Shown piece by piece: positions 7,202 to 41,329 of a stretch of DNA of 64,000 bases. Both the position numbers and the translations under genes were made by a program. The notes beneath the pieces are model-generated. The model made no database searches and was not told where the DNA came from. It saw nothing but the letters and a program-made list of their open reading frames with translations. How positions within the stretch are numbered: position 1 is the stretch's first letter; each line of letters opens with the position of its first letter. Where the stretch lies: NCBI GenBank assembly GCA_017469405.1, contig JAFUGL010000023.1, positions 1,111 to 65,110 of the forward strand, in the 5' to 3' direction. This stretch comes from Lachnospiraceae bacterium. Its GTDB lineage: Bacteria; Bacillota; Clostridia; Lachnospirales; Lachnospiraceae.

Positions 7202-7296
7202 AAGTATCCCTTTCTTATATCAAACTTATATGTGACAAGTTTACGCTCCCATATTACAGTTGCGCCAAGACTCTTTCTCAAATAAACTAATATATG

Positions 7297-8634
7297 TCAC
7301 TCTTCAATCAGTTTCTTTACCTCTTCGATACCGATATTTTTCTCCCTTGCTATGCGTGCCAAATCTTCGTATTCATATTTGCATCTCTTAGCGCCATATC
7401 CTGATGATATTTTTTGCCTTACTTCGCCATAAGGAGTTTCCACAGACTCTATCCGGCGCTTCAACACATATCTCTTTGTCTCGGTCTCACGCACTCCGAT
7501 AGTTGTTGTATATTTAAATATCAGTTCAATCATTTTCTCTTTGATTTCTTCTTTGCACATAACCCAGATAAGGGTGCCCGGTCTTGATTTTTTCATACCG
7601 ATCGGAATAGTATAAACCTCAAGTGCACCGCCATCAAACAGCCTTTCTGTTGCAAAGCTTATTTCCTCCGCAGTCATATCGTCCACATTACAGGATAGCT
7701 CAAGAACAGTATCCGTCTTATCATCTGCTTCGCCCATCATAGCCCTTACACAGTTAGCTGCTTCAAAATCCTTTTTTCCCATTCCGTATCCGATAGCGTG
7801 TGTTATCATAACCGGCATCTCACCAAAACTGTCTGTAAAATATTTCAATAATGCAGCTCCGGTCGGAGTGCAAAGCTCTCCGTTTATCTTACCGCCATAA
7901 ATCGGTACATCCTTTAAAATATAAGCTGTTGCAGGTGCCGGTACCGGAAGTATGCCATGTGCACACTTTACCTGACCGCTTCCTACATGCACAGGTGATG
8001 TAACTATTCTTTCAGGCGCAAGCTCTTCCATAAGCATACATACCATCGTAACATCCGCAACTGCATCCATGGTTCCCACCTCGTGAAAATGTATCTCGGT
8101 AACAGGTCTTCCATGCGCATGACTTTCTGCTTCAGCAATCAATCCATACACAGCCAGTACGTCTTTTTTCACTTTATCAGAAATATTTAAACTATCAACA
8201 ATATGCTCTATATCGTGCATGCTTGCATGGTGATGATGACCATGTTCGTGATGATGTTCGTGTTCGTGCTCGTGTTCTCCATGCTCGTGGTAATGATGCT
8301 CGTGCACATGCACGCCATGTTCATGATGATGGTGTTCATGTTCCCCATGCTCATGATGGTGTTCATGATTTTCATGTTCATGATCATATTCTCCATGCTC
8401 ATGATGGTGTTCGTATATATTTTCATCTTCCTCGGAACCGTTCACCCTAACTGCGATATGTGTTCCTGTAATTCCACACTTCACAGAACTTTCCTTTTCA
8501 ACCACCACACCGGGTATTGAAAGAGAATTTATTTTATCTATAAATTTATCAGGTTCAGGCAGGAGCTCAACCAACGCTGCTGCAAGCATATCTCCCGCTG
8601 CACCCATACTGCAATCCAGATATAATGTTTTCAT
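7297..8634 (-). CDS. larC: Nickel insertase LarC, single ORF with His-rich region
   Basis: DCSMGAAGDM, IHFHEVG, CAHGILPVPAPAT, ELCTPTGAA and a long His/Glu tract. Confidence 0.95.
   Translation of the reverse strand: MKTLYLDCSMGAAGDMLAAALVELLPEPDKFIDKINSLSIPGVVVEKESSVKCGITGTHIAVRVNGSEEDENIYEHHHEHGEYDHEHENHEHHHEHGEHEHHHHEHGVHVHEHHYHEHGEHEHEHEHHHEHGHHHHASMHDIEHIVDSLNISDKVKKDVLAVYGLIAEAESHAHGRPVTEIHFHEVGTMDAVADVTMVCMLMEELAPERIVTSPVHVGSGQVKCAHGILPVPAPATAYILKDVPIYGGKINGELCTPTGAALLKYFTDSFGEMPVMITHAIGYGMGKKDFEAANCVRAMMGEADDKTDTVLELSCNVDDMTAEEISFATERLFDGGALEVYTIPIGMKKSRPGTLIWVMCKEEIKEKMIELIFKYTTTIGVRETETKRYVLKRRIESVETPYGEVRQKISSGYGAKRCKYEYEDLARIAREKNIGIEEVKKLIEE
8220..8412 (-). repeat. His/Glu-rich low-complexity coding repeat within larC
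   Basis: Iterated HEHHHEHG-like units. Confidence 0.85.
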
Positions 8635-8664
8635 CGTAAACCTCCAAATTAAATTCGTTTAACA

Positions 8665-8834
8665 TGTCATCAGAGACGATTCTCTCTGACACATTATATA
8701 TCATCATCCATTCTGTAAGACTGTATATAAAAATGTGCTTAGCATGGCGTTAAGTAACACGTGCCATGCGAGTACATTTATATATACTGTCGAAGCATAC
8801 AAAAATGTGTCAGAGAGAATCGTCCCTGATGACA
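8665..8834. repeat. REPIN-like long palindrome, copy 2 (between larB and larC)
   Basis: Perfect 21-bp arms GACGATTCTCTCTGACACATT (8675-8695 / 8804-8824), extendable to 8665/8834. Core GTGCTTAGCATGGCGTTAAGTAACACGTGCCATGCGAGTAC at 8735-8775. Confidence 0.85.
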
Positions 8835-8841
8835 CATTTGT

Positions 8842-9585
8842 TCACCTGTGGTTTATCATGCTTGCAAGATACCCTGCTCCAAATCCGTTATCGATATTTA
8901 CAACAGACACTCCGCTGGCACAGGAATTAAGCATAGATAATAACGCAGAAAGCCCTCCAAAGGATGCTCCATATCCGACACTTGTCGGTACTGCTATAAC
9001 CGGACAATCGCAAAGTCCTCCTACCACACTCGCTAAAGCACCTTCCATACCTGCAATTGCAATCACAACGCTCGCATCCATAAGTTCCTCCTTATACGCA
9101 AGCAGCCTGTGAATTCCTGCGACCCCGACATCATAGATTCTCGTCACCTCATTTCCAAGTGACTCGGCCGTGATGGCAGCCTCTTCTGCAACAGGTATGT
9201 CGCTTGTGCCCGCTGTCGCGACAACAATCTTTCCTAAACCGTCTGCCTTGTGAAATGTACCGTAAAATCCGATTCGTGCATCAGCATAATAGGTTATAGG
9301 ATAATTTTTTGATAAGTCTTCCGCCTTATCAGGTTCAATCCTGGTTATCAAGATCTTATCCTGTCCGTTTTCCTTCATCACATCAATAATGCCGCTTATC
9401 TGCTCACAAGTTTTTCCGGCTCCGTATATAACCTCCGGCACTCCCTGCCTTATCTTGCGATGATTATCAACCTTAGCATATTCTATATCAGTAAACGGTT
9501 CAACCTTTAACTTTAAAAGTGCCTCATCAACCGAAAGCACACCATTTTTTACATCCTCAAGTATACGCTTAGTCTCATTTATCAT
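8842..9585 (-). CDS. larB: Nickel-pincer cofactor carboxylase/hydrolase LarB
   Basis: PEVIYGAGKT, TAGTSDIPVAEEA, AGMEGALASVV, VPTSVGYG, VNIDNGFGA. Confidence 0.95.
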   Translation of the reverse strand: MINETKRILEDVKNGVLSVDEALLKLKVEPFTDIEYAKVDNHRKIRQGVPEVIYGAGKTCEQISGIIDVMKENGQDKILITRIEPDKAEDLSKNYPITYYADARIGFYGTFHKADGLGKIVVATAGTSDIPVAEEAAITAESLGNEVTRIYDVGVAGIHRLLAYKEELMDASVVIAIAGMEGALASVVGGLCDCPVIAVPTSVGYGASFGGLSALLSMLNSCASGVSVVNIDNGFGAGYLASMINHR

Positions 9586-28935: not shown

Positions 28936-30810
28936 CTATGACTTTAATAATTTAAATACAACCATACCAAGAATTGCATCAAGAGACATAAGGAGCAAAA
29001 TGGCTGCCTTCATAGGTTTCGCTTTATCGCCTGTGGTTACTCCTGTACCCTTTTTTTCACTCTTGGTAACATTACTATCATCCGTTGAAGTTTCTGTTGT
29101 CAATTCCTCTGATGTTATCTTTTCAGTAGTTAGTTCCTCTGTTGTAATTTCTTCGGTCGTTACTTCTTCAGTTGTTACTTCTTCGGTTGTTACTTCTTCA
29201 GTTGTTACTTCTTCAGTTGTCTCTTCTTCAGTTGTCTCTTTTTCATTGACTATACTGATAGTGTTGGTTGAAGAATCTACTGTTACTCCATCATATGTAT
29301 CATTAAGAATAACGTTATTTTCTGAATCAATATAAAATGATATCTCTGAAGTATTAGCTATATATCCATCCGGTGCCTCAAGCTCTTTTAGAATATGATC
29401 TGAATTTGTCATAAGATTATATAAGGTATAGCTTGACTTGGTTAAATCTTCAAATATTCCTCCCGACGCCTCCTTATTATCAGCATCACGAATTTCAAAC
29501 TTCGCACCCGGTATCGGATTACCGTCAGAATCGGTTTTTAAAATTGTAACATAGGTTCTATCATTTTTTACCCTAATCACTCCACCCGACAAAATCTCAG
29601 CATCACTTTGACCGGATAATAAAGTTATACCATTATCCAGACTTGTTTTAAATTTTATCTCTTCAGATACAGGTATATATCCGGCAGGTGTAGAATCTTC
29701 TATTATGGTATATTCCTTGCCTATTTCAAGATTATTAATTGTAAGATAGTTTTCTCCATCTGATTCCCACTCATCTACAACTTCATCACCATTCTCATCT
29801 AAAACCTGAAATACAGCACCATCTACAAGATTACCGGCATCATCTACTTTAGCTAAATTTGCATTTATAAATACCGCATCACATAAAACATTTTGATGAC
29901 CATCATTAACCATATATATCCATGCATCAAATCCCATTCCATAATAATCCGGCAATGTATCGATATAATCAAAAAGCGGTTTATAAAACAGATTCCACAA
30001 TGAATACTCATCATCTATAGGATTATATGACGGATCATTGGATGTATACCATTTTTTCTGCTGTGTAGTAAATTCTGTTGGGTCGACAGCAGCACCCGAC
30101 TGTATTGAATTTAATCTAAAATCTTCAGGATAAACAGCCATCCACATAAGACGTTGTGGTGCATCTTGTGAAACCTCATTTCGCCAGTAAGTTCTGAAAA
30201 TATTATACGCTATATTACCTTTTAATTCCTCTATTGTTATCAGGCCATTATCATAATCTGCTTTCCACGCAGCCAAAGATTTTCTCTCGCCTTTATATGT
30301 TCTTTCTTTTGAAGCCAATGAATTGTTTAGTGTTATAGAGCCATCAATATACCTGTCTATGATTGAGCTTGTCATACCGGTTATATCTATATTTCTAACA
30401 TTAACATAACTAACGATATCTTTCCTACGTATCAATATCTTCATAAGTCTTGACTTAACATCATCTGTAAGAGTCTTATCGAAATTATATTGTACACCAT
30501 CCTTAATATATTCCTTGGTATATCCGTCAATTTCTGAAAGTCTTTTTCTTGTATAATCAACGCTGGTACCCGGACCGTCACATAAGCCATCAAGACAAAA
30601 TGAATGTCCTGAAATTGTGACTCCATTTGAATCGGTAATATTATTATCTTTATTATAACCGCTAATCTTATAAGTCTCTTCATCACCTTCGGCATATACG
30701 GTTTCTATACCGGTATTTGTTGAAAAAACAAAAGTAACTACAATAAAAACCGCAAGCAGCCACGCACATACCTTATTAAATTTTCCTGATTTAAAACTTC
30801 TTTTAAACAT
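28936..30810 (-). CDS. Sortase-anchored surface protein: putative thioester domain, two SpaA/Cna-B domains, TTEE stalk
   Basis: FCLD / PQRLMW / HQNVL motifs, LVDGAVFQV, IPGAKFEI, EAPDGY, VTTGD + TM. Confidence 0.82.
   Translation of the reverse strand: MFKRSFKSGKFNKVCAWLLAVFIVVTFVFSTNTGIETVYAEGDEETYKISGYNKDNNITDSNGVTISGHSFCLDGLCDGPGTSVDYTRKRLSEIDGYTKEYIKDGVQYNFDKTLTDDVKSRLMKILIRRKDIVSYVNVRNIDITGMTSSIIDRYIDGSITLNNSLASKERTYKGERKSLAAWKADYDNGLITIEELKGNIAYNIFRTYWRNEVSQDAPQRLMWMAVYPEDFRLNSIQSGAAVDPTEFTTQQKKWYTSNDPSYNPIDDEYSLWNLFYKPLFDYIDTLPDYYGMGFDAWIYMVNDGHQNVLCDAVFINANLAKVDDAGNLVDGAVFQVLDENGDEVVDEWESDGENYLTINNLEIGKEYTIIEDSTPAGYIPVSEEIKFKTSLDNGITLLSGQSDAEILSGGVIRVKNDRTYVTILKTDSDGNPIPGAKFEIRDADNKEASGGIFEDLTKSSYTLYNLMTNSDHILKELEAPDGYIANTSEISFYIDSENNVILNDTYDGVTVDSSTNTISIVNEKETTEEETTEEVTTEEVTTEEVTTEEVTTEEITTEELTTEKITSEELTTETSTDDSNVTKSEKKGTGVTTGDKAKPMKAAILLLMSLDAILGMVVFKLLKS
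29103..29244 (-). repeat. 15-bp tandem repeat encoding (V/T/I/L)TTEE spacer
   Basis: Iterated GTTACTTCTTCAGTT units. Confidence 0.9.
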
Positions 30811-30943: not shown

Positions 30944-31450
30944 CTATTTTACCATTCCAATCTCAGTATAAATCATCCCATTTTTTCCACGTTCTGAACA
31001 CATAAGCGAAACACTTGTTGCAACCATACTGCCTTTCGGCGGTTCCGATATCGGAATAGCTTTTCCGTCTTTATATGAACTCTTTCTAATCAACGTAATA
31101 TGCGAAGAAAATCTCTTTTTATCAAATGGTATACCCTGATTGGACAGTTCTCGACGCAGCCGCCGCACATATCCTGAAAGTTGCGGATTATCAGCAAGTC
31201 CAACCCAGAATAAATCCCCAAAGTTTCCAACTCCGTTCAGACTGATTTTAATCGGGCGAAAGTCCACTTGCTCCATAGCATCAAGAACCCTTTCAGGATT
31301 ACCAAAATCACCGATAAATGCCAGAGTGATATGCAGATTTTCACGTTTTGTATAATTACCCGTCACACCCTGCCTTTTAAGATTATCCTGAAAATCCGTC
31401 AATGCGTTAATTATATTTTCATCAAATTGAATTGCAATGAATAGTCTCAT
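30944..31450 (-). CDS. thpR: RNA 2',3'-cyclic phosphodiesterase (2H family)
   Basis: Two HxT motifs (NLHITL, SHITL), MRLFIAI start. Confidence 0.9.
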   Translation of the reverse strand: MRLFIAIQFDENIINALTDFQDNLKRQGVTGNYTKRENLHITLAFIGDFGNPERVLDAMEQVDFRPIKISLNGVGNFGDLFWVGLADNPQLSGYVRRLRRELSNQGIPFDKKRFSSHITLIRKSSYKDGKAIPISEPPKGSMVATSVSLMCSERGKNGMIYTEIGMVK

Positions 31451-31656: not shown

Positions 31657-34188
31657 TTATTCATCAAATGAATCCAGTATTCTTTTCATCAATTTTTCAA
31701 CATCCACCACTAAAGCAAAACATTGTTCAGCGTCTACTTTTTTTAATTCATTTGTATGAGCCGATGGATTTCGGTAATCCTTTCGAACTTCTTCAATAGA
31801 TTCGGCATAGTCATGCAATATATCCATTATTTCATCATCTGTCTTACCAGATAATAATTTTTCTCTTGAATACTCAATAAGTTTTTCTTTATTATTCTCT
31901 TCTCGAGACTCAGTTAAATCGTCTGCCTTTAAATAACACAGTACATATGCTACAGATCCAAGTGTAAAGTGCTTTGGTCTTATTGGTTTCCCATATTGAT
32001 CAATCAATGGAGTTGGAAACAGTGCGTAATTAGATCTTCCCGGGTATTTTATTCTCAGAAAAGATAAGTAATTCCTACAAAATCTTTTACTTATCTCTAC
32101 TTCAAGTGCTTTTGTTACCAGTAAACAGACGCCCGAATAATCAACTATATCTTCAAGCCCTTCTAAATTATTAAATATCACCTTTGATGACACCAAAAAA
32201 GTTCTTGATGATTCATCCATTTTGTTCCAAGCATCTTCCCCAAATGATATAATTAGTTTATTGAGTTCTATATTATACTCTTTTTCAGAATTCTTCGTTC
32301 CAACTTCTCTAATAATACGTTCAGCACATTCTTCAGAAAATGCATGAATAATCCTCTCTTCCTCTTCTGGCGTTATCGCCAATTCCAACTGTTTTTCCAC
32401 AAGCGACTGATATCCTAATATCTGCTTTGATAATACCTCTATTTTTTCTGTAAGATTATCAACCTTGTCTTCAATACGATATGTAGAAGCTTTGATTTCC
32501 TCAATACCTCTTAGAATTAATTCCATCGTAGTTCTATCTGCAATTGATGATTCATTTATATTTTCCTTTTCAATAGAAATTATTTCTTTGTCGCTTTTCT
32601 CCTTCTTTATGACTTTATTTAAAATTTGTTTCTTACCCGGTCTTGGTAACTCCGGAATTTGTTTGAGTGTACCGTCAATATATTCATAAATATAATCATC
32701 GACAAAAAGATATAGACTTAATTCACCTATGTTTTGCTTAATTGCAAAGAGCTGCCTTGATAAATAGCTGTTATTCTCAATCTGCGATGATTCATAAGTT
32801 TTAACTTCTACTATACCCTTTAATTTTCCATTCTCCCATAATGCGAGATCATATTTAAACCCATTATTAACATATCCTTCCTCAACATACCATCCTAATT
32901 CCTTGAAAAGAAAAGCCACTTTAGCCTCCAAATCAGCTGCATTATCTATACGTTCTGCTGTCTTCATCAACTTAATATCAGGAACATACAAATCAATAAG
33001 TCCTCTTATAGATATGTTATTAAAAAAGCTTCCATGATTCATGAATCTAAGCTGAGTTTCTATCGCATCAATGCCGGTATGAGTGCTAAAAAAGAGCTGA
33101 AGCCATTCTTCATATTCCTGCTTACCACGTATTATTGAAACATAATGATTTGCAATGGCAAAGTCCTCTTCTCCATGATATACAGCCCAATCTTTTCTGC
33201 CAATTGTAGAAATTAAGATATCACCTTTTTTCAGTATGCACTGTTCTGCTCTATTATTAGAAGAAACAAAATCCGCATTACAATACACATTTATATCATC
33301 ATCAAAATGCAACTTTCCCCCACTAATGTTCTGTGGCTTTATAATGATATATTCACCATGATTCTTTCTCTCCTCCGCCGGAATCATATAACCTTTAAAT
33401 ATATCTGCTATATCTCCGAGCTTAACTGTATCTCTTCTTTGTATTAATTCTCTTATTTCTTTATATTTCGGATCATAATAATATGCATCAAAGCGGTCAT
33501 ATACTTCTTCCGCCGCTACATAAAAACCACTCCGACCATTTTTGTATCCCTCATACAGAATTTCAATTTTTTCTTCTGCAAGACTCATAAATATTTTTCC
33601 ACTCTGAGCCTTATTGCGCACAATAATAATTGAACACTGTGTCCCTGTCCAAAGACTAATTCTGCTCAGTGTAAAAACGGCTTCTAAAGAATAATCACAT
33701 AATATTTTTTCACGCATTTCACGAAAAGCAGGTTCTGTCAGTATTTTTTGTGGAACAATAATTATTGCACTTCCATTCTCTGCTAACAGTTTCAAGCTCT
33801 TCTCTATATAAATCACCTCTGAATAACCCTGCTTTGTTCTAACGCCCATAGGCGGAAACAGGATTATTGATGAGTATTGCCTAACGATATCCGCCTTCAA
33901 ATAATCTTCCGTTATTATATTTATATCATCAAAAAATGCACACTCTTCAATCGTTTCTCTTGTTTCAGGAAATACCGAATATGCGTCTGATTTTTCAGCA
34001 CATAGCGCCAATTCTCCCATCCCAACATTTGGGATTAAGCTTCTATCACTCTGAAAATCTCTGTTTAACAAATATAAAAATTTGAGAACCTCTTTTTCTG
34101 TAATGAAAACGCCCATACTCCGATCCATCTTTTTTGTTGCTATACTTTCGAACTTGTTGTATTTCTGTTCAAAATTGTCTGCACTCAT
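31657..34188 (-). CDS. Fusion: N6-adenine MTase-like domain, type I S-like TRD, PD-(D/E)xK domain, coiled coil, HEPN-like domain
   Basis: GVFIT (motif X), IPNVGMG (motif I), ILFPPMG (motif IV variant), KLGDIADI...KGDILIS (TRD), YDLAL..IVEVK, RNPSAH. Confidence 0.72.
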   Translation of the reverse strand: MSADNFEQKYNKFESIATKKMDRSMGVFITEKEVLKFLYLLNRDFQSDRSLIPNVGMGELALCAEKSDAYSVFPETRETIEECAFFDDINIITEDYLKADIVRQYSSIILFPPMGVRTKQGYSEVIYIEKSLKLLAENGSAIIIVPQKILTEPAFREMREKILCDYSLEAVFTLSRISLWTGTQCSIIIVRNKAQSGKIFMSLAEEKIEILYEGYKNGRSGFYVAAEEVYDRFDAYYYDPKYKEIRELIQRRDTVKLGDIADIFKGYMIPAEERKNHGEYIIIKPQNISGGKLHFDDDINVYCNADFVSSNNRAEQCILKKGDILISTIGRKDWAVYHGEEDFAIANHYVSIIRGKQEYEEWLQLFFSTHTGIDAIETQLRFMNHGSFFNNISIRGLIDLYVPDIKLMKTAERIDNAADLEAKVAFLFKELGWYVEEGYVNNGFKYDLALWENGKLKGIVEVKTYESSQIENNSYLSRQLFAIKQNIGELSLYLFVDDYIYEYIDGTLKQIPELPRPGKKQILNKVIKKEKSDKEIISIEKENINESSIADRTTMELILRGIEEIKASTYRIEDKVDNLTEKIEVLSKQILGYQSLVEKQLELAITPEEEERIIHAFSEECAERIIREVGTKNSEKEYNIELNKLIISFGEDAWNKMDESSRTFLVSSKVIFNNLEGLEDIVDYSGVCLLVTKALEVEISKRFCRNYLSFLRIKYPGRSNYALFPTPLIDQYGKPIRPKHFTLGSVAYVLCYLKADDLTESREENNKEKLIEYSREKLLSGKTDDEIMDILHDYAESIEEVRKDYRNPSAHTNELKKVDAEQCFALVVDVEKLMKRILDSFDE

Positions 34189-36516: not shown

Positions 36517-36819
36517 TTATATATTTCTACCTTGATATTGTACAGTGACTACATACACAATCTTCTTCTCCCTATCTATCTTAAATATGGCAAGATAGTT
36601 ATCAATAAGAATCTGTTTATATCCTTTTTCTGCATATCTTCCAACCAACCTGTCTTGATGAGATTCAGGAAATATATCTAATGACCGAATAGCAGCCCAT
36701 ATTCTATCTGTCTGTCCTTTGGCATTTTCCGGTGCATTTTTTTCCAAAGCAATATAGGCATAAATATCATCAATATCTCTATATGCCCTTGGATATAACA
36801 TTACTTCATATTTATCCAT
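36517..36819 (-). CDS. RelE/ParE family toxin
   Basis: RAYRDIDDIY, SLDIFPE, YKQILIDNYLAIF; overlaps the antitoxin stop. Confidence 0.9.
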   Translation of the reverse strand: MDKYEVMLYPRAYRDIDDIYAYIALEKNAPENAKGQTDRIWAAIRSLDIFPESHQDRLVGRYAEKGYKQILIDNYLAIFKIDREKKIVYVVTVQYQGRNI

Positions 36820-37075
36820 AGTATTTCTCGTTCAGCCTGTTCATAGCAACATCTAACGGTATAGGCTGAGCCCCTTCTTCAACTTCTTTTTCAGCTTCAT
36901 ATATAGCCTGATCAATTTTGTTTATCTGAGCAAACTTCTCATACAACTCCGCACTCATAACTACCAAATCACTGTAACCGTTCTTTGTAATAAAAATAGG
37001 TTCCTGCTTCTTGTGTGCTAATTCAGATATATCACTTGTGTTTCTTAAATCTCTAATCGGCATAATTGTTGGCAT
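36812..37075 (-). CDS. Phd/YefM family antitoxin
   Basis: IMPIRDLRN, EPIFITKNG, VVMSAELYE. Start MPTIMP after GGAGGTG. Confidence 0.92.
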   Translation of the reverse strand: MPTIMPIRDLRNTSDISELAHKKQEPIFITKNGYSDLVVMSAELYEKFAQINKIDQAIYEAEKEVEEGAQPIPLDVAMNRLNEKYYG

Positions 37076-37095
37076 AATCAACACCTCCTCTATTT

Positions 37096-37132
37096 GCAGC
37101 ATCATTATAGCATAATTATGCTGCGCTGTAAA
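37096..37132 (-). promoter_or_regulatory. TA promoter with palindromic operator
   Basis: TTTACA-17-TATAAT overlapping the palindrome AGCATAATTATGCT. Confidence 0.7.
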
Positions 37133-37943: not shown

Positions 37944-38336
37944 TCACCTAATCTTATCAATAAGCGTAATATCCGCCGGAAGCCATTCAACATTATCCAG
38001 TTCAGACTTTCTTAGCCACCTTGCAGCTTCATGTTCCTTCAAAACCAAATCGCCTTTTATTATTTCACACCAAAAGCAATCCATAGATAAATGAAATGTA
38101 GGATAGTCATATTCAATGGTATCAATTAACTCCCCAACCTCAATATCAGTATCTAATTCCTCTTTAATCTCGCGAATTAAGGCTTCTTGAGGAGTCTCTC
38201 CATCTTCGATTTTTCCTCCAGGGAATTCCCAACCGCCTTTTAAATCACCATAACCTCGCTGGGTTGCAAATATAATAGGTTCGTTATTTTCGTTCTTAGC
38301 TTTGATTACAGCTGCAACAACCCTTATTGTTTTCAT
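37944..38336 (-). CDS. NUDIX hydrolase (MutT-like)
   Basis: GGKIEDGETPQEALIREIKEEL Nudix box; overlaps the helicase stop. Confidence 0.93.
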   Translation of the reverse strand: MKTIRVVAAVIKAKNENNEPIIFATQRGYGDLKGGWEFPGGKIEDGETPQEALIREIKEELDTDIEVGELIDTIEYDYPTFHLSMDCFWCEIIKGDLVLKEHEAARWLRKSELDNVEWLPADITLIDKIR

Positions 38337-41329
38337 ATTTGTTTTTCCTCCGTATCATTACCGCTTTGAAGATAACGCAACAAATCTTCTCTAACAGCGG
38401 TATGCATTTTAACTTTTAGCTTACAAATAGGTTTTAATTCGCCTCTGTTATTCATTTTTTTATCTTCGTATACATCAACGATATCAAATTCCCCCATATA
38501 GAAAAAATTATTTTCTACATCTGTTTTTTGAACCATCAGATGCTTTCTTGGAGAATTTAATACTTTCTGCATATATGCCCCATCAAGTTTTTTATCTATC
38601 TGTGAATCCCATCTAAAAATCACATTGTCTACAAATTCATCTGCATAATCAGGCTTACCATCAATGTACTGCTTTTCTGCATCAGTATTTTCTTCCTTAT
38701 GATACGTAACAAAGATAAAAACATCTTCTCCATCTGACCACATTCCATACATTGTAGAAGAAAGATCCTTTCCGACACCCATGAGCAAACTTACATCTCG
38801 CCTTGAATATTTTTCATAAAGAACAAACGGGCAATCCTTTTTATAAGTATGACTATATTTATCCTGATATCTTGCTAAACCAACTTTAATTATATCTTCA
38901 ACCTGTTCATAGAAATCCTTATGAGCAAGTCTCTGTGAATAGCTCATCATTCTTTCAATAAATGAATCAGAGTTATCATTCACGATATCTATATGACTAA
39001 ATTTTTCAAACTCAGACGAATTGGTAACAAACTCTCCACTAAGCACGTCACATGCAGCTTTGATTTTTGAATTAGTAATTTCATATCCATATTTATCCTT
39101 GCAACTGTCAATAACTTCCTGATATGATATAGACGTTTTATCTTGAAAGAGACGAAGTATTTCCAGCTCATCCGGTCTGACACCACTAAGAATTGTCTTA
39201 GACAAGTATTCTAACGTAAGCTTCTCTTGTTCTGACAACGAGAAAAATGAATCATTATTCTCCATTTTTTCAACAAATGAATAATAGGTCTTATATTCTC
39301 GAATAATAATTAATGGATCAACTTCATCATTTTTATAAAAATCTATGAGCATTGGTATACGACCAAGACGATTTTTTAAATTAGTATATCCCTCTCTAAT
39401 TAACGCCTTAAATGTTTTTGGCTTTATATTATCAATTGCCTTAAATATGCGTTCTCTTGATATAGCATCAAAATGAATCGTTGATGCGCCCGGAATTGTA
39501 TTATTACCACTGATTATATATTTTCGAATTATATCAGCGTTATATGTTCGATCTCCAGATAATGCCACAGGAATCATAAAATTTTGATTATAATTCCCGA
39601 TAAAATCAAGAATAACAACATATTCCTTTCCTTCAGCTTTTCTAAGGCCCCTTCCAAGCTGTTGTATAAATACAATTGGTGACTGTGTTGGGCGAAGCAT
39701 TATTACCTGATTGACCTCAACAATATCTACACCTTCGTTTAAAATTTCCTTTGAGAAAATATAATCCAAAGGAGTTACTTCATCATGCGCATCTTCTTCA
39801 TTCATTGCCAATCGTTCAAATGCATCCTGTCTTTCTTGCTCAGACGCACTACCGTTTAATGCAATGGTTCTATATGGTTTTCCGGTCGCAGGATTTACTA
39901 TCTTGTTAAATTTGGAAGATAATTCTTCCGTTTCTCTTATACTGCTACAAAAGATTAAACCTTTTACCTTTTCCCCACTATACCCATAATAATTAGCCTG
40001 ATTAATAATATGCTTTACTCTCTCATCACTAGTAAGAACTGAAAAATCATGATTGGAATTCTCATCGTCTCCGATAATTGACAAATCAGTTATTCCAAAA
40101 TAATGAAACGGACAAAGCAAATTTTCTTCCATCGCCTGCTGTAATCTTATCTCATAAGCAATCTGATAATGGAAAATCTCATAGACATTTTTTCCTTCAA
40201 TATTGTCATCACGTTTATCCGGTGTCGCAGTCATACCCAGCCAAAGTTTAGGAGTAAAATGTTTCATAATTTTCTGATATGTATCTGCTGGCACATGGTG
40301 TGCCTCATCTAAAACTATGCAATCGAAAGTATCCTTATCGTACTGAAACAAATGCTCATCTCTATTTAACGTCTGTACAGTAGCAAACACATAGTCTGCA
40401 TCATAATTACTATAACCGGCACCTACAAGCCCCATTTTAACAGACTTTGGAAATACCCTTTCGTATGATTTCTTCGACTGTACTGCAAGCTGACCTCTGT
40501 GAACAAGAAACAAAACGCGTTTAAATCCAAGCTCACGCATAGCAAATGCAGATGCATAGGTTTTACCTGTTCCTGTAGCTGAGATAAGTAGAGCTCTTTT
40601 CTCCCCTGAATCTATAATCCTCTTTAAATTTGTTATAAAGCCAACCTGCATACTATTTGGCTCAAGTTTATATTTTTCAATGGAAGTAACATCTTCCTTC
40701 TTTGCCAAAGCTCTCTGATGCTTTATGATATTATAACGTTCATTATATGCCTCATAAAATTCATCATACGAATATGAGTACTCAGAATTCCATAGCTCAT
40801 TATATTCAGCAACTATTTCCTGCGCCATCTCACCTTCTTCGTTAGAAATAAGTTTAGTATTCCACTCGCGATTTCTTGTAAGCGCGAAACCTGTAATATT
40901 GGAACTGCCAATAATGATACTATATATTTCAGATTTTTTAAAAATATACCCCTTAGTGTGAAAGCCTTCACCTGAAGCATCAACATCATACATTTTAAGT
41001 GTAATATTTGATAATTCATTTAGCTTTGTTAATGCTTCCGGCTCACTAAAGCTTAAATAATTTGTAGTTAAGATTTCTCCCGTGACATTCCTTTTTTCTA
41101 ATTCTTTTAATGTTTGAAGAAGCGGAGTAATTCCACTTTTGGTAATAAATGCCACACTTATCTTAAATCCATCGCACATCAACAGCTCATCTTCTATAGA
41201 AGATAAGACTTTCTTTCCTTCTTTATAATTATTAGAAATAAATTGGGGTCTGTATGCAACAGAGGATGCGACGGAACCGTCAATATATGCCGTTTCAAAA
41301 CCAGTTCTTAATTCATCGAATTTTTTCAT
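38333..41329 (-). CDS. PLD nuclease - SF2 helicase - DUF3427 protein (SauUSI-like type IV restriction enzyme)
   Basis: FHTKGYIF (HKD), ATGTGKT, DEAHH, QQLGRGLR, C-terminal YSRRDV/FVTYHK/WDSQ region. Confidence 0.85.
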   Translation of the reverse strand: MKKFDELRTGFETAYIDGSVASSVAYRPQFISNNYKEGKKVLSSIEDELLMCDGFKISVAFITKSGITPLLQTLKELEKRNVTGEILTTNYLSFSEPEALTKLNELSNITLKMYDVDASGEGFHTKGYIFKKSEIYSIIIGSSNITGFALTRNREWNTKLISNEEGEMAQEIVAEYNELWNSEYSYSYDEFYEAYNERYNIIKHQRALAKKEDVTSIEKYKLEPNSMQVGFITNLKRIIDSGEKRALLISATGTGKTYASAFAMRELGFKRVLFLVHRGQLAVQSKKSYERVFPKSVKMGLVGAGYSNYDADYVFATVQTLNRDEHLFQYDKDTFDCIVLDEAHHVPADTYQKIMKHFTPKLWLGMTATPDKRDDNIEGKNVYEIFHYQIAYEIRLQQAMEENLLCPFHYFGITDLSIIGDDENSNHDFSVLTSDERVKHIINQANYYGYSGEKVKGLIFCSSIRETEELSSKFNKIVNPATGKPYRTIALNGSASEQERQDAFERLAMNEEDAHDEVTPLDYIFSKEILNEGVDIVEVNQVIMLRPTQSPIVFIQQLGRGLRKAEGKEYVVILDFIGNYNQNFMIPVALSGDRTYNADIIRKYIISGNNTIPGASTIHFDAISRERIFKAIDNIKPKTFKALIREGYTNLKNRLGRIPMLIDFYKNDEVDPLIIIREYKTYYSFVEKMENNDSFFSLSEQEKLTLEYLSKTILSGVRPDELEILRLFQDKTSISYQEVIDSCKDKYGYEITNSKIKAACDVLSGEFVTNSSEFEKFSHIDIVNDNSDSFIERMMSYSQRLAHKDFYEQVEDIIKVGLARYQDKYSHTYKKDCPFVLYEKYSRRDVSLLMGVGKDLSSTMYGMWSDGEDVFIFVTYHKEENTDAEKQYIDGKPDYADEFVDNVIFRWDSQIDKKLDGAYMQKVLNSPRKHLMVQKTDVENNFFYMGEFDIVDVYEDKKMNNRGELKPICKLKVKMHTAVREDLLRYLQSGNDTEEKQI

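What the first reader, a model, noticed from the sequence alone, without database searches (positions are those of the whole stretch)
31657..34188. Single-chain RM-like protein with an altered methylase motif and a C-terminal HEPN RNase: candidate new anti-phage system
Seen: one 843-aa ORF carries, in order, HsdM-type motifs (GVFIT, IPNVGMG, motif IV read as FPPM at 33847-33858 instead of NPPY/F), one S-subunit TRD, a D-x-EVK nuclease motif, a coiled coil, and an R-x4-H motif (RNPSAH, 31756-31773) in a helical C-terminal domain. Established: motif IV N/D is catalytic in N6-adenine MTases; Rx4-6H is the HEPN RNase site; PrrC couples a HEPN tRNase to a type I RM complex and fires when phage inhibit it. 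Inference: this could be a one-protein guard in which a possibly inactive MTase-TRD senses DNA or an anti-restriction mimic and activates HEPN-mediated abortive infection. No separate hsdM/R/S is in the window.
Basis: partly seen in the sequence, partly recalled or inferred. Interest (0 to 1): 0.8.

Follow-up and report, generated by a model that had tools for sequence, protein, structure and literature searches.

The report
Dead-methylase sensor fused to HEPN-like nuclease
One 843-residue gut-bacterial protein joins a catalytically dead DNA-methylase/target-recognition head to a DNA-nuclease motif and, through a long helix, to a widespread unannotated tail with an RNase-type (HEPN) active-site signature, so it is most likely a new single-protein anti-phage sensor-effector, though no activity has been tested.

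Summary
ORF 31657-34188(-) encodes 843 aa with FPPM in place of NPPY, one TRD, D447-x13-E461-V-K463, a long helix and RNPSAH, at the stated coordinates. In about 28 homologues the catalytic N/D of motif IV is missing in all but one and motif I has no Gly-rich loop, so the methylase is very probably dead. The nuclease motif is kept in 26 of 28, and RNxxAH plus E698-x3-R702 are invariant. The TRD is not hypervariable (52% identity against 40% for the MTase-like domain), the reverse of real RM enzymes. Residues ~520-843 are a mobile cassette (1,592 clusters, always C-terminal, no Pfam/PADLOC/NCBIfam/PHROG model). It is also joined to McrB-N or DUF4145-HEPN heads, or encoded as a two-gene cassette on conjugative elements. 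Its motifs and helix order fit the HEPN definition, but Foldseek finds no HEPN or any other fold, and profile evidence is sub-threshold. HEPN is therefore probable, not shown. Neighbourhoods are defence islands; type I RM operons lie beside 3 of 8 distinct loci, none in this window. Best reading: a dimeric sensor-effector defence protein. The Ocr-sensing guard idea remains open and untested. New variant of a known kind; interest about 0.6.

The parts
31657..34188 (-). Whole 843-aa ORF (stop codon 31657-31659)
   Evidence: 27 homologues, mostly full length
33574..34188 (-). Residues 1-205: gamma-class N6-adenine MTase-like Rossmann domain, predicted catalytically dead
   Evidence: AF2 pLDDT mostly 80-94. 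Foldseek matches 7eew, CamA, M.TaqI and BpuSI at E 1e-15 to 1e-13. It is the least conserved globular domain, 40% mean identity.
34000..34038 (-). Residues 51-63 LIPNVGMGELALC: remnant of motif I after beta-1, without a GxGxG/F loop
   Evidence: alignment columns; only P53 and G58 are conserved
33847..33858 (-). Residues 111-114 FPPM at the motif IV position, directly after beta-4 (105-110)
   Evidence: F/C/V/W/I-[PSTLAN]-[PVLA]-x in 27 of 28 homologues; only P0015 has NPPI
32989..33438 (-). Residues 251-400: single target-recognition domain of type I S-subunit type
   Evidence: Pfam Methylase_S E 1.5e-6. PDB Esub1 8vsq profile E 1.2e-6. Mean identity 52%, so not hypervariable.
32653..32931 (-). 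Residues 420-512: PD-(D/E)xK-type nuclease domain
   Evidence: DSSP order alpha-beta-beta-beta-alpha-beta. Pfam HSDR_N is sub-threshold at E 0.0099.
32800..32850 (-). Residues 447-463: D447-x13-E461-V-K463 catalytic motif
   Evidence: D447 and K463 are invariant in A1; the motif is kept in 26 of 28
32299..32544 (-). Residues 549-630: long helix, putative dimerising coiled coil; start of the mobile cassette (~520-843)
   Evidence: AF2 helices 549-603 and 607-628 at low pLDDT. Weak 3.5-residue periodicity. Co-transferred with the tail: 40% identity over 329 aa to P0165.
31660..32298 (-). Residues 631-843: conserved all-helical C-terminal module with HEPN-type signature
   Evidence: AF2 pLDDT 91.8, pTM 0.87. 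1,592 clusters, always C-terminal. No Pfam, PADLOC, NCBIfam or PHROG model.
32125..32142 (-). Residues 683-688 DYSGVC: family-specific invariant motif at the start of the second long helix
   Evidence: D, S, V and C are invariant down to 24% identity
32083..32103 (-). Residues 696-702 E-V-E-I-S-K-R: E698-x3-R702, matching the HEPN helix-2 Ex3[KR] element
   Evidence: E696 and E698 are invariant; definition from PMC3710099
31756..31773 (-). Residues 806-811 RNPSAH: Rx4H with N after R, at the end of the penultimate helix
   Evidence: invariant in 25/25 and RN[PKR]x[ASC]H in 127/128 representatives; DSSP position

Best explanation
The gene encodes a self-contained defence-island sensor-effector. 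SHOWN: the N-terminal half has the fold of a single-chain gamma-class adenine methyltransferase plus one TRD, but it has lost the catalytic motif IV N/D and the motif I glycine loop. It is followed by a conserved PD-(D/E)xK motif. A long helix then joins it to a roughly 210-aa helical module that carries invariant E-x3-R and R-N-x-x-A-H motifs. That helix+module cassette is mobile and is combined elsewhere with other nucleic-acid-binding heads. INFERRED: the dead MTase-TRD head no longer methylates and serves only as a binding module. Its ligand would be a DNA feature common to invaders (a sequence or a modified or flipped base) or a DNA-mimicking anti-restriction protein. The long helices dimerise the protein, pairing two TRDs (as half-S subunits do) and two tail domains, as HEPN RNases need for a composite active site. 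Ligand binding switches on the nucleases: the PD-(D/E)xK site cuts DNA and the HEPN-like site cuts RNA, giving restriction and/or abortive infection. My split for the ligand is foreign DNA about 0.3 and DNA-mimic decoy about 0.2, within the 0.5 given to the overall sensor-effector model.
For: Fold and motif loss. The MTase-like domain is the least constrained globular domain (40%), the TRD is not diversifying (52%) and the tail is the most constrained (67%). D...ExK is kept in 26/28. The HEPN criteria of PMC3710099 are met for the motif, the polar residue after R, Ex3R in the second core helix, the insert between helices 2 and 3, and the motif at the end of helix 3. Nine of 22 trimmed members give a weak hit to a HEPN-clan Pfam family while all other hits are singletons. 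hhalign against real DUF4145 domains aligns the RNxxAH region at E 3e-4. About a quarter of relatives carry a true N-terminal DUF4145 HEPN, a dyad arrangement typical of HEPN proteins. Cassette mobility and alternative heads (McrB-N, DUF4145, TFIIB-like, separate ResIII-like partner). Defence-island contexts: type I RM in L001, L018/19 and L020; type III-like plus SLFN helicase in L004; helicase-DUF2726 in L002; SRA/McrA in L021; LlaJI-McrBC beside P0165; type IV enzyme and a TA pair in the window. The spread across Lachnospiraceae, Oscillospiraceae, Erysipelotrichaceae and Fibrobacter suggests horizontal transfer.
Against: There are no biochemical or phenotypic data at all. The high-confidence tail model has no Foldseek match to any HEPN or any other structure in PDB or BFVD. 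A profile search of PDB sequences finds nothing. The Pfam HEPN hits are all below threshold, and hhalign reaches only 40% probability over 24 columns. The RNPSAH loop itself is modelled at pLDDT below 50. Coiled-coil periodicity is weak and dimerisation was not modelled. With an active DNase and no cognate methylase, how self-DNA is spared is unexplained. SAM binding by the degenerate domain cannot be excluded, because the motif III 'DFL' is largely kept. No RNA-seq run holds the gene.
Confidence: 0.5

Rival explanations
1. Decoy or guard of type I restriction. The dead M-S-like head mimics the HsdM2S1 DNA-binding groove, captures DNA-mimic anti-restriction proteins (Ocr, ArdA), or reports on a resident type I enzyme. 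It then releases the nucleases and causes abortive infection.
For: MTase catalysis has been lost while the fold is kept. The TRD is conserved rather than diversified, as expected if the ligand is a common mimic rather than varied DNA sites. Family members lie at the 3' end of, or close to, type I hsdRMS operons in L001, L018/19 and L020. The best structural match is an M-S fusion MTase solved with Ocr bound (7eew). In Ronin, HsdMS senses Ocr/ArdA independently of methyltransferase activity (bioRxiv 10.1101/2023.04.06.535777).
Against: Five of the 8 distinct loci examined, including this window, have no type I system nearby. The same effector cassette is attached to McrB-N and DUF4145 heads, which are not RM decoys. 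The conserved DNase motif has no role in a pure decoy. No interaction data exist.
Confidence: 0.2
2. The C-terminal module is not an RNase. The RNxxAH/ExxxR residues would serve another role (ligand binding, regulation, oligomerisation or a different chemistry), and the protein would act only as a methylation-independent, TRD-guided PD-(D/E)xK DNA endonuclease, type IV-like or type II-like.
For: No structural or above-threshold profile match to HEPN. The family has its own invariant DYSGVC motif and two invariant cysteines that are not typical of HEPN. The PD-(D/E)xK motif is conserved. Type IV enzymes and NUDIX genes are neighbours.
Against: The stand-alone and DUF4145-fused versions have no PD-(D/E)xK domain but keep the module, so the module itself must carry a function worth mobilising. 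The motif, its position and the Ex3R partner match the HEPN definition closely. RNxxxH arises by chance with P=0.022 but is invariant here.
Confidence: 0.15
3. A selfish stabilisation or exclusion module of mobile elements (addiction or entry exclusion) rather than anti-phage immunity.
For: The stand-alone cassette sits on conjugative-element backbones among ParA/ParB, RepA_N, TraG, sortase/SpaA, Lar and PBECR4 genes. L021 lies next to a serine recombinase and terminase remnants. TA pairs are frequent neighbours.
Against: The fused form in this window and in most loci is chromosomal, among RM and type IV genes, with no evident antitoxin partner. Defence genes are themselves commonly carried on conjugative elements.
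Confidence: 0.1
4. An ordinary, active single-chain RM enzyme (type IIG/IIL-like) or orphan methyltransferase whose unusual motif IV still supports methylation.
For: The MTase+TRD fold is intact and well modelled. Motif III 'DFL' is largely kept and one homologue has NPPI. NCBI names one homologue 'restriction endonuclease subunit S'.
Against: Motif IV N/D is absent in 27/28 and the position is variable (F/C/V/W/I). Motif I lacks the glycine loop and no conserved acidic residue ends beta-2. The MTase-like domain is the least conserved domain while the TRD is conserved, the reverse of active RM families. The search with the N-terminal half found no catalytically intact sister group.
Confidence: 0.04

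Closest known systems
PrrC / RloC anticodon nucleases
   Same: A C-terminal HEPN-type Rx4-6H RNase is held in check by an N-terminal sensor. They are often encoded inside or beside type I RM operons and fire as a back-up when restriction is blocked (PMC3710099). Three of the 8 distinct loci place this family next to hsdRMS.
   Different: PrrC/RloC use an ABC-ATPase sensor, which is absent here. This protein uses a dead MTase+TRD and also carries a PD-(D/E)xK motif. Most loci, including this window, have no type I partner. There is no detectable sequence relationship.
Ronin decoy system (HsdM + HsdS + RonA; Silas et al. 2023 preprint)
   Same: An RM-derived M/S module is used as a sensor, independently of methyltransferase activity, and is coupled to a cell-killing effector.
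   Different: Ronin has three separate genes, its HsdM is catalytically intact, and its effector is a 61-aa membrane toxin. Here everything is one chain, the MTase motifs are lost, and the effectors are nuclease-type. A trigger by Ocr or ArdA has not been tested here.
HEPN-REase fusions and DUF4145 HEPN proteins in RM contexts (Anantharaman et al. 2013)
   Same: A HEPN domain is combined with restriction-endonuclease-fold domains and located in RM neighbourhoods. Relatives of this protein carry real DUF4145 domains.
   Different: The tail is not recognised by any Pfam HEPN model. It is about twice the size of a minimal HEPN and has its own DYSGVC motif. A dead-MTase+TRD head is not among the listed architectures.
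CoCoNuT CnuE effectors (wHTH - coiled coil - HEPN)
   Same: The design principle is the same: a nucleic-acid-binding head, a coiled-coil spacer predicted to multimerise, and a HEPN RNase effector, within type IV/RM superoperons (PMC11090510).
   Different: CnuE works with CnuB/C McrBC-like GTPases and a helicase, and none is linked here. The head domain is different.
Single-chain gamma-class MTase+TRD enzymes (M.TaqI, CamA, M.BseCI, Vibrio 7eew, type IIG BpuSI)
   Same: The fold of residues 1-400 is the same (Foldseek E 1e-15 to 1e-12).
   Different: The catalytic NPPY and the SAM-loop motifs are missing. The nuclease is C-terminal to the TRD rather than N-terminal as in type IIG. The TRD is conserved rather than variable.

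Membership tests
HEPN superfamily | Rx4-6H motif with a polar residue (N/D/H) directly after R | tested here: met
   R806-N-P-S-A-H811 is invariant in 25/25, and RN[PKR]x[ASC]H is present in 127/128 representatives. Definition from PMC3710099.
HEPN superfamily | Upstream conserved acidic residue in helix 2, typically within Ex3[K/R] | tested here: met
   E698-I-S-K-R702 lies in the second long helix of the domain. E696 and E698 are invariant down to 24% identity.
HEPN superfamily | Four-helix up-down bundle with an insert between helices 2 and 3, and the motif at the end of helix 3 or start of the loop to helix 4 | tested here: inconclusive
   The DSSP order fits: H30-52, H56-85, insert 86-154, H155-176 ending in YRNPSAH, H191-211. 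The coordinates could not be inspected, so helix packing and R/H/E proximity were not checked.
HEPN superfamily | Detectable homology (sequence profile or fold) to an established HEPN family | tested here: inconclusive
   Foldseek against PDB and BFVD gave no hit better than E 0.5. hmmsearch against PDB sequences found nothing. Pfam hits were only sub-threshold: Hypoth_Ymh in 6/22, and HEPN_Swt1, Csm6_HEPN and HEPN in 1 each. hhalign against DUF4145 domains gave probability 40%, E 3e-4, over 24 columns.
HEPN superfamily | Metal-independent RNase activity | not testable with these tools
   Needs biochemistry.
Active gamma-class N6-adenine DNA methyltransferase | Rossmann MTase fold with an attached TRD | tested here: met
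   Foldseek matches 7eew, 7lni, 2ibs and 3s1s at E 1e-15 to 1e-12. PADLOC MTase_II E 1.3e-11.
Active gamma-class N6-adenine DNA methyltransferase | Motif IV (N/D)PP(Y/F/W) after beta-4 | tested here: not met
   FPPM in this protein. N/D is absent in 27/28 homologues, and the single NPPI lacks the aromatic residue.
Active gamma-class N6-adenine DNA methyltransferase | Motif I glycine-rich SAM loop (xxGxGxF) | tested here: not met
   The sequence is LIPNxxxGE(L/I), with a single conserved Gly.
Active gamma-class N6-adenine DNA methyltransferase | Gene-dependent m6A motif in genomic DNA | not testable with these tools
   Needs methylome sequencing.
Type I RM specificity subunit (HsdS), the name given by NCBI to homologue P0017 | Two TRDs separated by two conserved helical regions, partnered with an adjacent hsdM | tested here: not met
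   There is one TRD only. No hsdM or hsdS lies in the window. The protein is 843 aa and carries three extra domains.
Type IIG RM enzyme | One chain with an N-terminal PD-(D/E)xK nuclease, an active gamma-MTase and a TRD | tested here: not met
   A nuclease motif is present, but it is C-terminal to the TRD, and the MTase catalytic motifs are absent.
PD-(D/E)xK nuclease superfamily | alpha-beta-beta-beta-alpha-beta core with D on beta-2 and (D/E)xK on beta-3 | tested here: met
   DSSP gives H420-430, E434-437, E448-452, E455-462, H474-487 and E491-496. D447 and E461-x-K463 are conserved in 26/28. Pfam HSDR_N is only sub-threshold at E 0.0099.
PrrC/RloC | N-terminal ABC-ATPase domain fused to the HEPN anticodon nuclease | tested here: not met
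   No ATPase domain appears in Pfam, PADLOC, NCBIfam or the model.
Ronin | hsdM + hsdS genes tightly linked to the small transmembrane toxin gene ronA | tested here: not met
   This is a single fused ORF. No separate hsdM or hsdS is present, and the effector domains are nuclease-like rather than a 61-aa membrane peptide.
CoCoNuT (CnuE) | Operon with a CnuB/McrB GTPase, CnuC/McrC and a helicase; CnuE is wHTH-CC-HEPN | tested here: not met
   No McrB/C-like genes lie beside the gene in the window or in L001-L005, L018-L021. The head is MTase-like, not wHTH.

The most novel reading that the evidence does not exclude
The ~320-aa coiled-coil+tail cassette is a large, so far unnamed clade (at least 1,592 clusters) of HEPN-like nucleases with a fold that current structure libraries do not recognise. 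It would be used as a plug-in suicide or restriction effector behind interchangeable nucleic-acid sensors. In this protein the sensor would be a fossil restriction-modification enzyme turned into a single-chain, methylation-independent decoy that detects DNA-mimic anti-restriction proteins (or a modified flipped base) and answers with both DNA and RNA cleavage.
Probability: 0.15. Interest if true: 0.8.

Novelty: new variant of a known kind. Interest (0 to 1): 0.6.

Why it matters
If the prediction holds, this would be a compact, one-gene immune protein showing how a restriction-modification enzyme can lose its chemistry and be reused purely as a sensor. That idea has so far been shown experimentally only for the multi-gene Ronin system. 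It would also give a name and function to a widespread effector cassette in gut Firmicutes and their conjugative elements, which is currently invisible to Pfam, PADLOC, NCBIfam and PHROGs. The cassette's interchangeable heads (dead MTase-TRD, McrB-N, DUF4145) offer a natural set of comparisons for asking what each sensor detects.

Tried and rejected
2. phmmer and hmmsearch of the whole protein, the family profile and the tail profile against PDB sequences hit only the TRD and MTase parts; nothing matched the tail.
3. The idea that the ~255-aa upstream partner of the stand-alone cassettes, or the Bacillus 360-aa partner, is homologous to part of the fusion was rejected: BLASTP E is above 0.5.
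4. The idea that the nuclease domain belongs to the mobile cassette was rejected: the alignment with P0165 starts at residue ~520.
5. A conserved neighbouring gene was sought by clustering all ORFs of 7 loci plus the window. None was found.
6. The downstream 2H phosphoesterase as a functional partner was rejected as a conserved feature; it is absent from the other loci.
7. Promoter and terminator scans gave counts no higher than shuffled sequence.
8. Searches for RNA-seq evidence found no run. DNA runs are gut metagenomes only.
9. The search for a catalytically intact sister family of the N-terminal half found only this family and weak hits to ordinary HsdS TRDs.
10. 'GVFIT' as an MTase motif was rejected because it is not conserved.
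Full report
1. THE OBSERVATION. The ORF listing returns a single 843-aa ORF at 31657..34188 on the minus strand. Pfam recognises only one Methylase_S TRD (254-368, E 1.5e-6) and a sub-threshold Eco57I methylase match (126-174). PADLOC gives MTase_II (114-332, E 1.3e-11) and several type I specificity-subunit models, with nothing beyond residue ~470. NCBIfam gives only far-sub-threshold MADS hits. The only PDB sequence match is the half-S-subunit-like Esub1 (8vsq/8vsr) over the TRD. tblastn with a real hsdR/M/S trio finds no hsdM or hsdS in the window. A bare Rx4-6H is not remarkable: it is expected 1.5 times per shuffle, and a second, unconserved one sits at residue 331. RNxxxH arises by chance with P=0.022, and the motif at 806 is invariant.

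2. FAMILY AND MOTIF CONSERVATION. The full-length search found 27 proteins, almost all 810-880 aa and collinear. One, from Butyrivibrio sp. AE3009, is named 'restriction endonuclease subunit S'. In the 25-sequence alignment, R806, N807, P808, A810, H811 and T812 are invariant, as are D447 and K463 and a block DYSGVCLLVTKALEVE (683-698). More distant fused members from the exhaustive search (P0136, P0161, P0172, P0180, P0213, P0215, P0226; down to 29% identity) were then added. With them, the motif IV position reads F/C/V/W/I-[PSTLAN]-[PVLA]-x in 27 of 28, and the single NPPI lacks the aromatic fourth residue. The motif I position reads LIPNxxxGE(L/I) with one conserved glycine, and no conserved acidic residue ends beta-2. 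D...(E/D)xK is kept in 26 of 28, and RNxxAH and E-x-E-x3-R are kept in all. Established knowledge is that the N/D of motif IV is required for N6-adenine methyl transfer. On that basis the methylase domain is very probably catalytically dead across the family. SAM binding cannot be excluded, because a motif III-like 'DFL' is largely retained.

3. STRUCTURE. The full-length AF2 model (pLDDT 76.5) divides into five parts: a Rossmann-like domain (1-205), a TRD (~250-400), an alpha-beta-beta-beta-alpha-beta unit carrying D447/E461/K463 (420-510), a long low-confidence helix (549-628) and a helical domain (634-840). Foldseek places the N-terminal half with single-chain gamma-class adenine MTases that carry a TRD. 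These are the Vibrio M-S fusion solved with Ocr (7eew), CamA, M.TaqI, M.BseCI, the type IIG enzyme BpuSI and BrxX, at E 1e-15 to 1e-11. The tail was modelled alone with a 35-sequence alignment and reaches pLDDT 91.8 and pTM 0.87; only the RNPSAH loop is below 50. That model has no significant match in PDB (best E 0.63) or BFVD (best E 0.5).

4. IS THE TAIL A HEPN DOMAIN? The 2013 survey of the superfamily (PMC3710099) defines HEPN as follows. It is a four-helix up-down bundle, often with an insert between helices 2 and 3. [quoted passage not shown] An upstream acidic residue lies in helix 2, typically within Ex3[KR]. The tail shows H30-52, then H56-85 containing E698-I-S-K-R702, then an insert, then H155-176 ending in Y-R-N-P-S-A-H, then H191-211 (domain numbering). 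The motif and topology criteria are therefore met on paper.

Independent homology evidence is weak but points the same way. Among 22 trimmed, diverse members, the only Pfam family hit repeatedly is Hypoth_Ymh, a HEPN family (6 members). HEPN_Swt1, Cas_Csm6_HEPN and HEPN are each hit once, and all other hits are unrelated singletons. The N-terminal domains of dyad-type relatives are real DUF4145/Swt1/RiboL-PSP HEPN domains. A profile-profile comparison against them aligns 24 columns around RNxxAH at E 3e-4 and probability 40%. A profile search of PDB sequences finds nothing. I conclude that the domain is HEPN-like and probably a divergent HEPN, but this is not demonstrated.

5. THE TAIL IS A MOBILE CASSETTE. 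A profile of the tail finds 104 proteins in the indexed database and 1,592 representative clusters (410 at E below 1e-30) in the exhaustive search. The match is always at the extreme C-terminus, on proteins of about 290, 440-580, 640-860 or more than 1,000 aa. RN[PKR]x[ASC]H is present in 127 of 128 new representatives, about 37 residues from the end, and roughly a quarter carry a second RNxxAH near residue 100. The N-terminal partners include DUF4145 (L006, P0142, P0078), Swt1-like HEPN (P0133), McrB-N followed by an HsdR-N-like region (P0165), a TFIIB-like module (P0173), and the dead-MTase architecture. BLASTP of P0165 against the window protein aligns residues ~520-843 (40% identity over 329 aa) and nothing else, so the shared unit is the long helix plus the tail.

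Stand-alone 312-323-aa versions lie on conjugative-element backbones carrying ParA/ParB, RepA_N, TraG, sortase/SpaA, Lar and PBECR4 genes. They are always preceded by a ~255-aa gene that overlaps them by 8 bp and hits the first half of ResIII. In Bacillus sp. MKU004 the overlapping partner has two Rx4H motifs of its own. No model in Pfam, PADLOC, NCBIfam or PHROGs covers the module in any architecture.

6. CONTEXT OF THE FUSED FAMILY. No neighbouring gene is conserved, so the protein is self-contained, but its neighbours are defence genes. L001 has hsdR-hsdM-hsdS immediately upstream on the same strand. L018/19, which hold the closest homologue (79%), read hsdS-x-hsdR-x-gene, followed by a DUF6361/helicase/PDDEXK_1 set. 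L020 has AbiEi and hsdR-M-S 2.4 kb downstream. L004 has a type III-like Mod/Res pair and an SLFN-type helicase. L002 has an SF1 helicase with DUF2726. L021 has an SRA/ScoMcrA gene, then NUDIX, then the gene, beside a serine recombinase. L003 and L005 show no obvious partner genes. The window has a type IV enzyme (PADLOC 5.7e-184), a NUDIX gene and a RelE/Phd-like pair within 7 kb. The family occurs in Lachnospiraceae, Oscillospiraceae (Faecousia) and Fibrobacter, and the cassette also in Erysipelotrichaceae (Longicatena). The window sequence itself is found only in gut metagenome DNA runs, and no RNA run holds it.

7. A DISCRIMINATING STATISTIC. In active type I and IIG families the MTase core is conserved and the TRDs diverge with specificity. 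Here the order is reversed: MTase-like 40%, TRD 52%, nuclease 49%, helix 56%, tail 67% mean pairwise identity. The head is therefore not under selection to keep methylating, and the TRD seems to recognise one common ligand. The search with the N-terminal half alone finds only this family and weak hits to ordinary HsdS TRDs, with no catalytically intact sister group.

8. MECHANISM. What is shown is the anatomy and conservation described above. What is inferred is the following chain:
(i) The dead MTase-TRD is a binding head.
(ii) The long helix dimerises the protein. Half-S subunits such as Esub1 dimerise through such helices, and HEPN RNases act as dimers (established knowledge).
(iii) Ligand binding licenses the PD-(D/E)xK DNase and the HEPN-like RNase, giving restriction and/or abortive infection.
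The ligand is the open point. The McrB-N and DUF4145 sister heads favour a nucleic-acid feature. The conserved TRD, the dead catalysis and the type I neighbours favour a DNA-mimic decoy, as in Ronin, where sensing does not depend on methyltransferase activity. How self-DNA is spared is unexplained.

9. COMPARISON AND NOVELTY. In working principle the protein resembles PrrC/RloC, Ronin and CoCoNuT CnuE. It fails the defining features of each, namely the ABC ATPase, the separate hsdMS plus ronA, and the McrBC/helicase partners. It also fails the catalytic criteria for an active MTase, a type IIG enzyme or an HsdS subunit. HEPN-REase fusions in RM contexts were catalogued in 2013. I found no description of a dead-MTase+TRD head or of this tail family in the papers searched. 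I rate it a new variant of a known kind, that is, RM-derived sensor-effector immunity with a HEPN-type effector. It is of moderate to high interest because of the size of the unannotated cassette family and because the decoy hypothesis is testable.

Noticed in passing
window 30944-31450 (-): The gene directly downstream is a 2H-family RNA 2',3'-cyclic phosphodiesterase / 2'-5' RNA ligase (LigT/ThpR) homologue with two HxT motifs (PDB 1vdx E 4e-11, 5ldi E 3e-5). That enzyme acts on the kind of RNA ends HEPN RNases leave. The adjacency is not conserved in other loci, so it is probably coincidental.
   Followed up: yes
window 37944-41329 (-); L021 6818-7989: A type IV methyl-directed restriction enzyme (PADLOC mREase_IV E 5.7e-184) has a NUDIX gene overlapping its 3' end. 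That NUDIX is 71% identical to the NUDIX gene immediately upstream of the family member in L021, which itself follows an SRA/ScoMcrA gene. This may be a recurring type IV - NUDIX - sensor-effector neighbourhood.
   Followed up: partly
window 36517-37105 (-): Two small overlapping ORFs (100 aa and 97 aa) look like a RelE/ParE-type toxin with a Phd-type antitoxin, judging from their sequences only. They were not scanned against any library.
   Followed up: no
L010-L017, around 7232-8972 in locus coordinates: A two-gene cassette sits on Firmicutes conjugative-element backbones. A ~255-aa protein matching only the first half of ResIII (E 2e-7) overlaps by 8 bp a 312-323-aa coiled-coil+module protein. 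In L014 and L017 the upstream gene is shortened or split.
   Followed up: partly
L008 6935-8894 (Bacillus sp. MKU004): The stand-alone module gene is overlapped by a 360-aa partner that carries two Rx4H motifs (IRNIAEH and RNEAAH). The island also holds nSTAND3/AAA_5, PDDEXK_7, dynamin-like GTPases and a Ser/Thr kinase with Metallophos.
   Followed up: no
L007 10001-10111: An orphan 37-aa remnant, 68% identical to the last helix of the module (residues 806-842), lies between a NERD-helicase gene and the next ORF. It looks like a decayed copy of the cassette.
   Followed up: no
L018 1325-4462: The HsdR next to the closest homologue has an N-terminal 'VRILGMNAQH' stretch that resembles the DUF4145-type HEPN motif known to be fused to some HsdR proteins. 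This was seen in the sequence only.
   Followed up: no
window 28936-30810 (-): A 624-aa protein with an N-terminal signal-like segment, a C-terminal hydrophobic anchor and a (T-E-E-V/I/L-T) repeat run is probably a cell-wall-anchored surface protein. It is unrelated to the finding.
   Followed up: no
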